64,000 bases of DNA. Source: Malacoraja senta. Its lineage: Eukaryota. Position 1 is the stretch's first letter; each line of letters opens with the position of its first letter. The stretch is taken from contig CM075993.1 in assembly GCA_038087875.1 (NCBI GenBank), positions 3,412,001-3,476,000 of the forward strand, read 5' to 3'. The notes beneath the pieces are model-generated. The model worked only from the letters and a program-made list of their open reading frames with translations. It searched no databases and had not been told where the DNA came from. This document shows, piece after piece, positions 10,601 to 13,600 of this stretch. The position numbers and the translations under genes are program-made.

Positions 10601-13600
10601 TTACAGAATGCATTCAATTATAAATAAATGAGAGAAATTCAAATTAACTGCTTTTCTAAAAGTTCCCTTGCATTTTTACACCCCGATATTCAGTCTTCAG
10701 GATATTTAATTTCTAGTTTCGTTTAGTTTAGAGATTCAGCGTGGAAACAGGCCCTTCGGCCCACCCAGTCCATGCCGGCCAGCGATCCCCGCGCACTTAC
10801 ACTATCCTACACACACTAGGGACAACTTACAGTTATATTAAGCCATTTAGCCTGCAAACCTGTACGTCTTCCGAGTGTGGGAGGAAACTGGAGCACCCGG
10901 GGAAAACCCACGCGGGTCACGGGTAGAAGGTGCAAACTCCGTACAGACAGCAGCCGAGGTTAGAATCGAACCCGGGTCTCTGGCGCCGTGAGGCAGCAAC
11001 TCTACCCCCGTTAAAGGACAAACAGACAGGTACATGGATGGGAAAAGTTTAGAGGGATGCGGACCGAAGGCGGGAAAACGGGACGAGCGTAGATGGGGCA
11101 CATGTTGGTCGACATGGACGAGTTGGGCTGAAGGGCCTGATTCAGCGCCGCATGCAGTTCACATGGGTCTTGTTAACATGAGCCGCTGATGGAGCCACCG
11201 AGCTCGGGAGAACAGGGTGACTTTCAGGTCAGATTTATCAGTCAGCGATCGCTAATCCTGCAGCATCGATCCCCTGCAATGACACACTCTGTGACATTAA
11301 AGCGAGTAGTGAATCTGTGCAACTCTTTGTCACAGAAGGCTGTGAGGCCAAGTCAGTGGATATATTTAAGGCAGAGATAGATAGATTCTCGATTAGTACA
11401 GGTGTCGGGGGTTGTGAGGAAAAGGCAGGAGAATGGGGTTAGGAGGGAGAGATAGATCAGCCATGATTGAATGGCAGAGCAGAGTTGAAGGGCTGAATGG
11501 TCTAATTAGAAACATAGAATCATAGAAAATAGGTGCAGGAGGAGGCCATTCGGCCCTTCTACTCCTTATGGGCTTATGGGGTGGGAGATTGCAACCTTCA
11601 CGTGGTCCGCCCTGTTTCGACGAATGCAATCAACCTGGCGTGCACAATCAAGTAAGATCAAATAGAACAAGTTGTCCAACAGCTTTAGGCTGTGCACGCC
11701 ATACGCAAGAAGAAGAAGATGGGCTTATGATTAGGGAATGACTTGAGAATTAAGGGACAGAAGTTTAGGGGGAACATTAGGGGGAACTTCTTTACTCAGA
11801 GAGTGGTGGCTGTGTGGAATGTGCTTCCAGTGGAAGTGGTGGAGGCAGGTTCGATGTTATCCTTTAAAAATAGATTGGATGGGTATATGGACGGGAAAGG
11901 AATGGAGGGTTATGGTCTGAGTGCAGGTAGATGGGACTAGGGGGAAGTATTTATTTTTAATTAAAAAAAATAAAAAATAAAAATAAAAAAAAACATTTAA
12001 AAAATTTTAAATGTTCGGCACGGACTTGAAGGGCCGAGATGGCCTGTTTCCGTGCTGTTATGGTTATATGGTTATATAGGAGAAACATTTCCTTGACCCT
12101 GATCTGCGAGCGGCCCCTTTGTGGGTCCCACAGCGAGGCAGAGTGTGTGGCTTGGACCACCCGCAGGCACGACCTTTACTTGCAACCGCGGCAGATGACC
12201 GGCGAGTGACTCATTCGACTTACTTCTCCGACACTTGCTGCTTCAAGGCAGTCACCAGGTTCTCCAGCCGCTGGTTCTCAGAGTTGCATTCAGTGAACTG
12301 CAGGACAAAAGTGCAGAACACTCTCAGCTTGGACAAGAGCAAGCAAATCCCAGCACAGGTGGCACCAACGTCCGGTTGGGCCGCGAGTCCCAATACTGAT
12401 GCGTGTTTGAAGGAACTGCAGGCGCTGGTTTAAACCAAAGACACAGACACAAGAAGCTGGAGTAACTCAGCAGGCCAGGCTACTTGATCAGTACGGGTGT
12501 CTGGGTGAAGGCAGGAGAACTGGGTTAGGAGGGAGAGATAGATCAGCCATGATTGAATGGCGAAGTAGACTTGATGGGCCGAATGGCCTAATTCTACTCC
12601 TTATGGCCCACATCTCTGGTTCCCATTCCTTTTCTCCAGAGATGCTGCCTGTCCCACAGAGTTACTCCAGCTTTTTACAGTATGTCTATCTTTAATCCCA
12701 ATATTGGTTTCTCTAACTTCAAGTAACCCCGGCATTCCCTCTCTCTCCATCCCTCCCCCACCCAAGTCGCACCAGCTTCTCATTCTCACCCAGCAAACAG
12801 CTAACAATGTCCTGTTTCCTTTATCATCGCTACTTTTATGCATATCTCTCATTCATTTGTTCTATATCTCTCAACATCACCGTCTATATCTCTCGCTTCC
12901 CTTTCCACTCACTCTCAGTCTGAAGAAGGGTCTCGACCCAAAACGCCACCCATTCCTTCTCTCCAGAGATGCTGCCAGTCCCGCTGAGTTACTCCAGCCT
13001 TTTGTGTCTATCTTCGATTTAAACCGGCATCTGCAGTTCTTTCCTACACATCCCATACACAAGTACAACAAAGACTGCAAAGAGGACAAATACCATAGTG
13101 TGGAATAAAGCATCAGAGCGTGGTAGCGTAACGGCTACAGAGAGGGTGGCTGCAACATGCCACCTACATGAGGCGAACCAGTGGATTATACACCACTCCT
13201 GTATCAGGGAGGCACGGCGGTGCAGCTGGTAGTGCTGCTGCCTCACAGCGCCAGAGACCCAGGTTCGATCCTGACTGCAGACGCTGTCTGTGTTAAGTTC
13301 GTAGGTTCTCCCTGTTTCTCCGGGTGCTCCAGTTCCCTCCCACATCCCAAAGACGTGCAGGTTTGTGGGTTCATCGGCCCTCTGTAAATCGCCCCCTAGT
13401 GCAAAACATACTTGGCTAATAAAGTATGGTTATGATGTGTGTCGGATGTGAAATTGGGATAACATAGAACTAGTGTGAATGGGTGATCGATGGTTGGCGT
13501 GGACTCGATGGGCCGAAGGGCCTGTTTCCACGTTGTATCTGTAAACTAAAAAAAAAATCCATGGCATGATCTCACTTCACCTCTCACTTTCCACGAAAGC

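What the first reader, a model, noticed from the sequence alone, without database searches (positions are those of the whole stretch)
11568..11729. Short retroelement headed by a minimal HDV/CPEB3-like ribozyme, with its 5' end at the predicted cleavage site
Seen: 11578-11631 folds as a complete nested double pseudoknot. The parts are P1 GGGGTGG (11578-84)/CCGCCCT (11607-13) with a G1.U wobble, P2 GATTGCA/TGCAATC, P3 ACC/GGT, L3 TTCACGT, a single G for P1.1, an almost absent P4 (TTTCGA), and J4/2 CGAA. It is followed by an 11-bp stem (11636-46/11691-701), a (GAA)n tail and a ~10-bp target duplication. No Pol III A/B boxes are visible, and G1 directly abuts the duplication. Known: this is the HDV-family fold; L3 UUCACGU matches the mammalian CPEB3 ribozyme, and HDV-like ribozymes process the 5' ends of R2, RTE and L1Tc retrotransposons. 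Inference: this is a promoterless ~140-nt SINE-like element released from host transcripts by self-cleavage and mobilised by a LINE with a GAA tail (RTE-like). I do not know of such a family described in cartilaginous fishes, but I cannot search to confirm that.
Basis: partly seen in the sequence, partly recalled or inferred. Interest (0 to 1): 0.92.

Follow-up and report, generated by a model that had tools for sequence, protein, structure and literature searches.

The report
Ribozyme-headed mini retroelement of an RTE-like LINE
A 142-base mobile element, present in thousands of copies in this cartilaginous-fish genome, starts exactly at the predicted cut site of a small HDV/CPEB3-type self-cleaving RNA and is a cut-down copy of a LINE that carries the same head and tail; this kind of element is already known, but its relatives in the same genome closely resemble the "mammal-only" CPEB3 ribozyme.

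Summary
Window 11578-11631 fits an HDV-type double pseudoknot (P1 7 bp with G1.U, P2 7 bp, P3 3 bp, L3 TTCACGT, C11621 in J4/2, almost no P4). It is followed by an 11-bp stem, an (AAG)n tail and a 10-bp target duplication.

All 30 genomic copies I examined start at the same G1. The ribozyme core 18-mer occurs 2,933 times in the genome.

I found the LINE partner. It is about 3.2 kb with a single APE+RT ORF, which is RTE-like in architecture. It has the same ribozyme at its 5' end and the same last ~40 nt plus tail. The element is therefore a bipartite (internally deleted) non-autonomous LINE, not a Pol III SINE.

Five further retroelement families in this genome carry homologous heads that pass Rfam's CPEB3-ribozyme threshold (up to 64.2 bits; cut-off 35). 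Across all six families the helices covary (18 of 26 pairs change on both sides, 92.9% of cells paired) while the core stays fixed.

Self-cleavage and promoterless co-transcription remain inferred. The kind is known (Ruminski 2011 via reviews; Kojima 2018), so this is a new member. The CPEB3 likeness outside mammals is the most interesting by-product.

The parts
11569..11578 (+). left target-site duplication TGGGCTTATG (last base shared with G1)
11578..11631 (+). 54-nt HDV/CPEB3-type ribozyme head with minimal P4; predicted cleavage 5' of G11578
11578..11584 (+). P1 5' strand, pairs with 11607-11613 (7 bp; G1.U and U5.G wobbles)
11587..11593 (+). P2 5' strand, pairs with 11625-11631 (7 bp)
   Evidence: P2 was not in the model that made the alignment; 95.1% of cells paired
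11594..11606 (+). P3 (ACC/GGT) enclosing L3 TTCACGT; C11599 is the proposed P1.1 partner of G11614
11607..11613 (+). P1 3' strand CCGCCCT (G11609 is A in the LINE and in older copies: U.G to U-A)
11614..11620 (+). J1/4 G followed by the P4 remnant TTTCGA
11621..11624 (+). J4/2 CGAA; C11621 is the predicted catalytic cytosine (CTAA in the LINE)
11625..11631 (+). P2 3' strand TGCAATC
11632..11659 (+). segment derived from the LINE 5' leader just behind the ribozyme
11636..11646 (+). 5' arm of the 11-bp stem (leader-derived); pairs with 11691-11701
11660..11677 (+). short middle segment whose origin I did not establish
11678..11706 (+). segment identical to the last ~30 nt of the LINE; it contains the LINE's stop codon TAG and the 3' arm of the stem (11691-11701)
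11707..11719 (+). (AAG)n tail
11720..11729 (+). right target-site duplication TGGGCTTATG
34764..34899 (-). older copy of the same element; the catalytic CG has decayed to TG and P1 has U-A
36404..36524 (+). older copy with a LINE-type leader, lacking the first bases and most of the tail

Best explanation
Window 11578-11719 is one young copy of a bipartite, internally deleted non-autonomous derivative of an RTE-like LINE.

SHOWN
- The element consists of the LINE's 54-nt 5' head plus about 28 nt of its leader, a short middle piece, and the LINE's last ~40 nt with an (AAG)n tail.
- Copies start at one fixed nucleotide (G1).
- Copies are flanked by 9-16 bp target duplications.
- The head has the HDV/CPEB3 double-pseudoknot design, and its helices covary across six retroelement families in this genome.

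INFERRED
- Copies are transcribed as part of longer host or upstream transcripts.
- The head folds and cuts itself 5' of G1, using C11621 as the catalytic base. This gives an RNA whose first base is G1.
- The LINE's APE+RT protein recognises the shared 3' end and its stem, nicks the target, and copies the RNA by target-primed reverse transcription up to its cleaved 5' end.
- This would explain the uniform 5' junction.
For: Family and ends
- The own-genome search gave 583 first-look candidates. Forty were scored, all at 97-100% identity, and 38 of the 40 start at query base 1.
- The core 18-mer occurs 2,933 times and the A-variant 1,669 times; the reversed controls gave 0.
- 30 of 30 loci begin at the same base. 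27 of them read GGGGTGGGAGAT.
- 23 of the 30 have an exact 9-16 bp duplication ending right before G1. The other 7 look imperfect by eye.

LINE partner
- The LINE's 3' end carries the same ~40 nt and tail in 11 of 12 loci. Its ORF stops inside that stretch.
- The ORF pieces match RVT_1.
- Homologues are ~1000-aa APE+RT proteins on 3.1-3.4 kb contigs.
- In 15 aligned 5' ends of LINE type, the LINE leader and ORF start follow the same ribozyme. No sequence is shared upstream of G1. Three have the full GGGG and the rest lack 1-12 nt.
- One copy joins head, leader, ORF residues 22-1012 and the 3' end.
- L080 is a 1.6-kb internally deleted form.

Fold
- The chance rate of the descriptor is about 2e-7 per position.
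- SINE and LINE heads differ at 2 of 54 bases, both structure-neutral (G.U to A-U, and the second base of J4/2). The next 23 leader bases differ at 4.
- Family 2 heads pass the Rfam CPEB3 threshold at 63.8, 52.6 and 40.7 bits, and 9 of 12 copies start at G1.
- Across 33 distinct sequences, 92.9% of cells pair. When the 3' partner is slid by 1-3 columns, only 36-45% pair.
- 18 of 26 pairs change on both sides. In P2, which was not in the aligning model, 6 of 7 pairs do.

Other organisms
- Contigs from four coded organisms show the same boundaries, at 11577/78 and at 11713-20.
Against: - No cleavage assay was possible, and no RNA run was on record. Cleavage, co-transcription and the absence of a promoter are therefore unproven.
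- The head itself is far below Rfam thresholds (14.4 bits against 44; 11.0 against 35).
- Its nested folding energy is ordinary.
- P4 is reduced to about one pair, so activity may be weak.
- The catalytic C sits in a CpG in the SINE form.
- I wrote the descriptor after seeing the sequence.
- The covariation rests on about six lineages, many rows being decayed copies, and alignment A2 was fitted to P1 and P3.
- Among the 45 candidates scored, no copy of the partner LINE family lacked stop codons. The current source of the enzyme is therefore open.
- RTE clade membership rests on architecture only.
Confidence: 0.8

Rival explanations
1. The fixed 5' end is a transcription start set by an internal Pol II promoter in the head or leader. 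The conserved fold then serves another role (binding the LINE protein, translation initiation), or the head is both promoter and ribozyme, as reported for Pr77/L1TcRz of L1Tc and NARTc.
For: A fixed 5' end is also what an internal promoter gives. Dual promoter-plus-ribozyme heads are in print (PMC3383444, abstract start only). Kojima 2018 argues that bipartite LINEs are probably Pol II transcribed (PMC5786205, section 23). No RNA data were available here.
Against: The non-coding 142-nt element has no need for translation, yet it keeps the catalytic C and every helix. P4, the part least needed for HDV-type catalysis, is what was lost. The same design with covarying helices heads six families. 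If transcription started at G1 there would be nothing upstream to cut off.
Confidence: 0.13
2. It is an ordinary Pol III SINE (tRNA-, 5S- or 7SL-derived head) and the pseudoknot is a chance fit.
For: The size (142 nt), the copy number and the LINE-derived tail look like a SINE. The head scores below Rfam thresholds.
Against: No tRNA was found and no small-RNA family in Rfam matched. A-box and B-box matches are no better than shuffles. The head is the 5' end of the partner LINE itself. The chance rate of the fold is about 2e-7 per position. The helices covary.
Confidence: 0.02
3. It is merely a LINE 3' UTR fragment or a random 5'-truncated LINE copy.
For: The last ~40 nt are LINE 3' sequence.
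Against: 30 of 30 copies have the same 5' end and the same internal junctions. A pattern that requires non-element bases just upstream of the leader-derived stem found only 6 matches, all of them element copies with small indels. Copies do not run upstream into the ORF.
Confidence: 0.01

Closest known systems
HDV-like ribozymes at the 5' ends of RTE, R2, baggins and L1Tc LINEs (Ruminski et al. 2011; Eickbush & Eickbush 2010; Sanchez-Luque et al. 2011)
   Same: A double-pseudoknot ribozyme forms the first bases of a non-LTR element, with the cleavage site at the element's 5' junction. RTEs are described as lacking their own promoter and being co-transcribed (PMC6765202, passages of section 11).
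   Different: This one is in a cartilaginous fish, has almost no P4, and its core matches the CPEB3 type. I could not read Ruminski 2011 or Webb 2009 (not held), so I cannot say whether vertebrate RTE heads of this type are shown there.
Bipartite ORF-absent non-autonomous LINEs of the RTE clade (e.g. RTE-N2_Lch, WALLSI3; Kojima 2018, PMC5786205)
   Same: The element is made of the 5' end and the 3' end of its autonomous LINE by internal deletion and keeps the true 5' terminus. That paper suggests the 5' ribozyme as the reason (section 23 read).
   Different: This one is much shorter: 142 nt, against 286 nt for RTE-N2_Lch (5' 214 bp plus 3' 70 bp, as given in that paper). The ribozyme makes up most of the 5' part. 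Two base changes lengthen a leader-to-3'-end stem from 8 to 11 bp.
NARTc of Trypanosoma cruzi and R2 SIDEs of Drosophila
   Same: Non-autonomous partners that keep the ribozyme head of their LINE (PMC3383444 and PMC3414825; search listing and abstract starts only).
   Different: Different LINE clades (Ingi, R2). R2 is site-specific. Pr77 is also a promoter.
Mammalian CPEB3 ribozyme (Rfam RF00622)
   Same: The same L3 (UUCACGU), the same CCCUGU after P1 and the same CGAAU at J4/2 in the Rfam alignment. Sister families in this genome pass the model's threshold.
   Different: CPEB3 is a single intronic copy with a 7-bp P4, reported only from mammals (PMC8233481 and PMC2950038, passages). This head is a multi-copy retroelement head without P4 and with other P1, P2 and P3 sequences. 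It scores 11 bits against a cut-off of 35.
Minimal HDV-like ribozymes lacking P4 (recalled: Riccitelli et al. 2014; not seen here)
   Same: P4 reduced to a few bases.
   Different: Those were reported from microbiome sequence, as far as I recall. No call here checked this.
Classical SINEs (tRNA, 5S or 7SL heads, Pol III)
   Same: Short, abundant, with a LINE-derived tail and target duplications.
   Different: No Pol III head or boxes. The head comes from the LINE.

Membership tests
HDV-like ribozyme fold | Nested double pseudoknot in the order P1-P2-P3-L3-P3'-P1'-J1/4-P4-J4/2-P2' | tested here: met
   By hand; descriptor hit only at 11578; helices covary across families
HDV-like ribozyme fold | G at +1 forming a G.U wobble that closes P1, with the cleavage site at the 5' end of P1 | tested here: met
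   G11578.T11613; G.U in 20 of 33 distinct rows and A-U in 3. Sequence level only.
HDV-like ribozyme fold | Catalytic cytosine in J4/2 and a C in L3 that can pair with the G of J1/4 (P1.1) | tested here: met
   C11621; C11599 with G11614. The pair column is C-G in 32 of 33 rows.
HDV-like ribozyme fold | Self-cleavage giving 5'-OH and 2',3'-cyclic phosphate | not testable with these tools
   No assay was possible and no RNA run was on record
Rfam RF00622 CPEB3_ribozyme / RF02682 HDV-F-prausnitzii | Score at or above the curated gathering threshold | tested here: not met
   11.0 bits against 35 and 14.4 against 44 for the window head. Sister families score from 35.0 to 64.2 bits, so they meet it.
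Bipartite non-autonomous LINE | Made only of the 5' end and the 3' end of an autonomous LINE, with no ORF | tested here: met
   About 18 nt in the middle are of unassigned origin.
RTE clade LINE (the partner) | Single ORF of about 1000 aa with APE then RT, and a length of about 3.2 kb | tested here: met
   P0001 is 1019 aa with APE+RT. One genomic copy covers residues 22-1012 in about 3.1 kb. RTE lengths of 3095-3242 are given in PMC5786205, table 1.
RTE clade LINE (the partner) | Very short 3' UTR ending in a simple-repeat tail | tested here: met
   The stop codon TAG lies a few dozen bases before the (AAG)n tail. The feature itself is recalled from Malik & Eickbush 1998, which I did not see.
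RTE clade LINE (the partner) | RT domain groups with RTE in a phylogeny | not tested
   No named reference RT sequences were at hand
SINE in the strict sense | Head derived from a Pol III small RNA, with an internal promoter | tested here: not met

The most novel reading that the evidence does not exclude
The ribozyme heads of these cartilaginous-fish RTE-like retroelements are true relatives of the mammalian CPEB3 ribozyme, which the literature says has no outgroup outside mammals. On this reading the intronic CPEB3 ribozyme is an exapted retroelement head, and the 54-nt P4-less form in the window is a natural minimal version of it.

One old family (loci L116, L117, L119) shares with the Rfam CPEB3 consensus:
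- P1 GGGGGCC/GGCCCCU;
- P3 GCG/CGC;
- 6 of 7 L3 bases;
- the P4 stem CAGAUUCU/GAAUCUG;
- J4/2 CGAA;
- a P2 that differs by one compensated pair.
Probability: 0.45. Interest if true: 0.8.

Novelty: new member of a known kind. Interest (0 to 1): 0.62.

Why it matters
For the element itself: it is a clean vertebrate example of a ribozyme-defined 5' end. There are thousands of young copies, a very short natural HDV-type ribozyme with almost no P4, and the partner LINE is in hand. That makes it a convenient system for three questions:
- how promoterless non-LTR elements are released from host transcripts;
- what the minimal active HDV fold is;
- what an RTE enzyme needs at the 3' end (the stem grew from 8 to 11 bp).

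More widely: at least 39 sites in this genome pass Rfam's CPEB3-ribozyme threshold, and they sit at retroelement 5' ends. [quoted passage not shown] These sequences offer candidate outgroups and a testable origin for it.

Tried and rejected
- Rfam on 2.3 kb around the site at E<=10 gave no HDV-family match. Matches appeared only when the 71 nt were searched alone, and they were below threshold.
- Nested folding energies and z-scores gave no support, because pseudoknots are not scored.
- A pattern requiring non-element bases upstream of the leader stem found only 6 matches, all element copies with small indels and no LINE. The same trick on the tail gave 67 matches and led to the LINE.
- Locus L083, which has a full 5' end, was extended by 4 kb. 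Homology to the LINE stops after about 190 nt, so it is not a full LINE.
- Three further RTE-like 5' regions (L099, L100, L101) showed no clear ribozyme. L101 looks truncated at its 5' end and L100 starts in a microsatellite.
- Sequencing runs: no RNA holder was listed. The four runs laid are contigs and cannot show RNA ends.
- Earlier notes of this scan returned nothing.
- Papers not held: Ruminski 2011, Webb 2009, Webb & Luptak 2011. Their content is cited only through reviews.
- Searches for a prior description of ribozyme-headed elements in cartilaginous fish, or of CPEB3-like ribozymes outside mammals, found none in the listings shown. The library lacks most subscription journals, and I could not query Repbase or Dfam.
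- The ESM Atlas gave only 'Chordata' for the host.
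Full report
**What is in the window**

- P1 is 11578-84 with 11607-13. It has seven pairs, including G1.U and a second wobble, U5.G.
- P2 is 11587-93 with 11625-31, seven Watson-Crick pairs.
- P3 is 11594-96 with 11604-06.
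- L3 is TTCACGT. It is followed by G11614, six bases where P4 would be, and CGAA with C11621.
- Behind the fold lie an 11-bp Watson-Crick stem (11636-46 with 11691-701), a 13-base (AAG)n tail (11707-19) and a perfect 10-bp duplication (11569-78 and 11720-29).
- The duplication shares one G with the element.

**Is the fold more than chance?**

Energy gives no support, because the fold is a pseudoknot.
- The nested MFE of the 54 nt is just P1+P3 (-12.4 kcal/mol, z +0.92).
- The MFE of the 142 nt contains P2 and the long stem (z -0.63).

Rfam is suggestive but below threshold.
- It found nothing of the HDV family in 2.3 kb.
- On the 71 nt alone, the only two matches among 4227 families were HDV-F-prausnitzii (14.4 bits, cut-off 44) and CPEB3 (11.0 bits, cut-off 35).

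The descriptor test is significant at the position.
- I wrote the descriptor after seeing the sequence.
- It hits the window once, at 11578. It gave 2 hits in 26 dinucleotide shuffles.
- It gave 7, 3 and 0 hits in 33 Mb of Markov sequence for P2 of at least 5, 6 and 7 bp.
- At about 2e-7 per position, hundreds of chance fits are expected in a 1.9-Gb genome. A fit exactly at the first base of a mobile element is not expected.

**The family**

- The 141-base query found 583 first-look candidates in the window's own genome. Forty were scored, all at 97-100% identity, and 38 of the 40 start at query base 1.
- The core 18-mer occurs 2,933 times and a one-base variant 1,669 times. Reversed controls gave none.
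- In the 30 loci fetched, all 30 start at the same base, and 27 read GGGGTGGGAGAT.
- 23 of the 30 have an exact 9-16 bp duplication that ends immediately before G1. The other 7 have duplications with a mismatch. Two pairs of loci share flanks, so about 28 insertions are independent.
- Contigs of four coded organisms from four studies cover only 11572-11723. They lose likeness at 11577/78 and at 11713-20.
- No tRNA was found. A-box and B-box matches are no better than shuffles.

**The LINE partner**

The 3' end:
- A pattern that kept the tail but forbade three element bases upstream gave 67 matches. One of them (L040) showed an ORF end.
- Its relatives (485 candidates, 40 scored) end with a shared C-terminal coding stretch, whose stop codon TAG lies inside the same ~40 nt that end the short element. 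The same (AAG)n tail follows, in 11 of 12 loci.
- ORF pieces match RVT_1.

The protein:
- Homologues are ~1000-aa APE+RT proteins on contigs of 3.1-3.4 kb. The best is P0001: 1019 aa and 71% identity.
- Named relatives are arthropod proteins at about 50-55% identity.

The 5' end:
- The LINE's 5' region is the same ribozyme, a leader of about 110 nt and the APE start.
- In 15 aligned 5' ends of LINE type, none shares sequence upstream of G1. Three have the full GGGG and the others lack 1-12 bases.
- Several of these ends abut inverted LINE 3' pieces, as twin priming would give.

Copies that link the parts:
- One genomic copy joins the head (minus about 9 bases), leader, ORF residues 22-1012 with frameshifts, and the 3' end in about 3.1 kb.
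- L080 is a 1.6-kb form in which head plus 28 leader bases are joined directly to the RT region.

The short element is therefore the LINE's 5' ~82 nt, about 18 nt of unassigned origin, and the LINE's 3' ~40 nt. The partner is RTE-like by architecture; I did not make an RT tree.

**Signs of constraint**

- Majority letters of 30 short elements and 15 LINE-type heads differ at 2 of 54 ribozyme positions. One is G/A opposite U5 in P1. The other is G/T at the second base of J4/2.
- They differ at 4 of the next 23 leader positions.
- The same two ribozyme sites, plus one in the P4 remnant, are the only ribozyme sites that vary at 10% or more in the other organisms' contigs.
- Two of the leader changes (positions 59 and 61) turn an 8-bp complementarity between the LINE leader and the LINE 3' end into the 11-bp stem of the short element.

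**Sister families and covariation**

- A search of the genome with P0001 showed further RTE-like families at 38-49% identity, some without stop codons.
- The 5' ends of one of them (family 2) match Rfam's CPEB3 ribozyme model at 63.8, 52.6 and 40.7 bits against a cut-off of 35.
- 9 of the 12 family-2 copies examined begin exactly at G1 of that ribozyme after unrelated flanks.
- Family 1 and family 2 align without gaps except in P4. Nine pairs change on both sides and 98.3% of cells pair, against 32-46% when the partner is slid.
- Searching the genome with RF00622 gave 51 matches at E<=0.001 among 59 scored candidates, 39 of them over the cut-off. None appeared in 14 control genomes.
- The 16 matches I fetched fall into four more families.
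- One of these (family 6) has the same P4-less design as the window element yet scores up to 43.7 bits. It heads a ~170-nt element with an (AAG)n tail and 10-11 bp duplications.
- On 33 distinct sequences aligned to a model that held P1 and P3 but not P2, 92.9% of cells pair (36-45% when slid).
- 18 of 26 pairs change on both sides. P2 is paired in 95.1% of cells, with 6 of 7 pairs compensated.
- L3, the J1/4 G and the C-N-A-A of J4/2 hardly vary.
- Caveat: there are about six lineages and many decayed copies, so cells are not independent events.

**How it most likely works**

*Shown:* the anatomy, the fixed 5' end, the shared head and tail, and the conserved fold.

*Inferred:*
- copies are read through from neighbouring transcription;
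- the head cuts 5' of G1;
- the partner's protein uses the shared 3' end;
- reverse transcription runs to the cleaved end.

*Main rival (0.13):* an internal promoter starts transcription at G1, with or without ribozyme activity. Only RNA end chemistry and a cleavage assay can separate the two.

**What is known**

- Kojima 2018 describes bipartite ORF-absent non-autonomous LINEs of RTE, Ingi, Vingi and R2 that keep the true 5' end. It links this to the 5' ribozyme (PMC5786205, section 23 read; passages of sections 7-9 and 24).
- NARTc and R2 SIDEs are further precedents (search listing and abstract starts only).
- The kind is therefore known, and this is a new member. It is very short, very abundant, P4-less and found in a cartilaginous fish.
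- The host placement rests on named relatives of a flanking LINE protein.

**The unexpected part**

- Two papers state that the CPEB3 ribozyme is not found outside mammals (PMC8233481 and PMC2950038, passages).
- Here, sequences passing the curated CPEB3 model sit at retroelement 5' ends.
- One old family matches the model consensus in P1, P3, the P4 stem and J4/2.
- My searches (and the passages read) showed no paper reporting this. However, key papers and the repeat databases were out of reach.

Noticed in passing
L102:447-519; L103-L110 and L112 (own genome, e.g. C1:217550495): A second RTE-like LINE family (about 40% protein identity to P0001, about 20 copies, some ORFs without stops) starts with a 73-nt ribozyme that passes Rfam's CPEB3 model at up to 64.2 bits (cut-off 35). 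9 of 12 copies begin exactly at its G1.
   Followed up: yes
L116, L117, L119, L129: An old, decayed family whose head matches the CPEB3 consensus in P1, P3, the P4 stem and J4/2, with one compensated change in P2 (47.7-51.4 bits). I did not establish what element follows the head.
   Followed up: partly
L121-L127 with L130-L134: A ~170-nt element headed by another P4-less ribozyme (35-43.7 bits on the CPEB3 model), with an (AAG)n tail and 10-11 bp duplications. Copies have one G fewer than a 7-bp P1 needs. In 3 of 3 copies with clear duplications, the base before the element is a T that belongs to the target.
   Followed up: partly
L097 (rc 190-340) and L098 (rc 265-370): Four to six tandem repeats of a 26-nt unit, which is the 5' part of the family-2 ribozyme (P1 5' strand through P3), precede the complete ribozyme. 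The origin is unexplained; template jumping at the RNA 5' end is one idea.
   Followed up: no
own genome, e.g. C7:49371247-49371653, C22:5752208-5752580, C5:51294332-51294742: A recurring composite with the same boundaries in many loci: an inverted 182-nt piece of the LINE leader and APE start lies next to a 183-217-nt LINE 3' piece with tail. It looks like a twin-priming product that has itself been amplified.
   Followed up: partly
L066:1420-1531; rows matching query 4-100: A second non-autonomous subfamily: ribozyme, about 45 more leader bases, and then the LINE tail directly.
   Followed up: partly
window 11400-11568 and 11730-11900: The element sits inside another repeat, the 3' region of an abundant CR1-like LINE. 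That LINE's protein is 93% identical to a Leucoraja erinacea entry.
   Followed up: partly
The named relatives of the partner LINE's RT are all arthropod proteins (about 50-55% identity), and no vertebrate is named among the best 120. This could reflect horizontal transfer, which is known for RTEs, or gaps in annotation.
   Followed up: no
Several other RTE-like families have long open frames without stops (e.g. C8:934716-937556, C4:35486717-35489629, C4794:29568-32492). They may be active.
   Followed up: no
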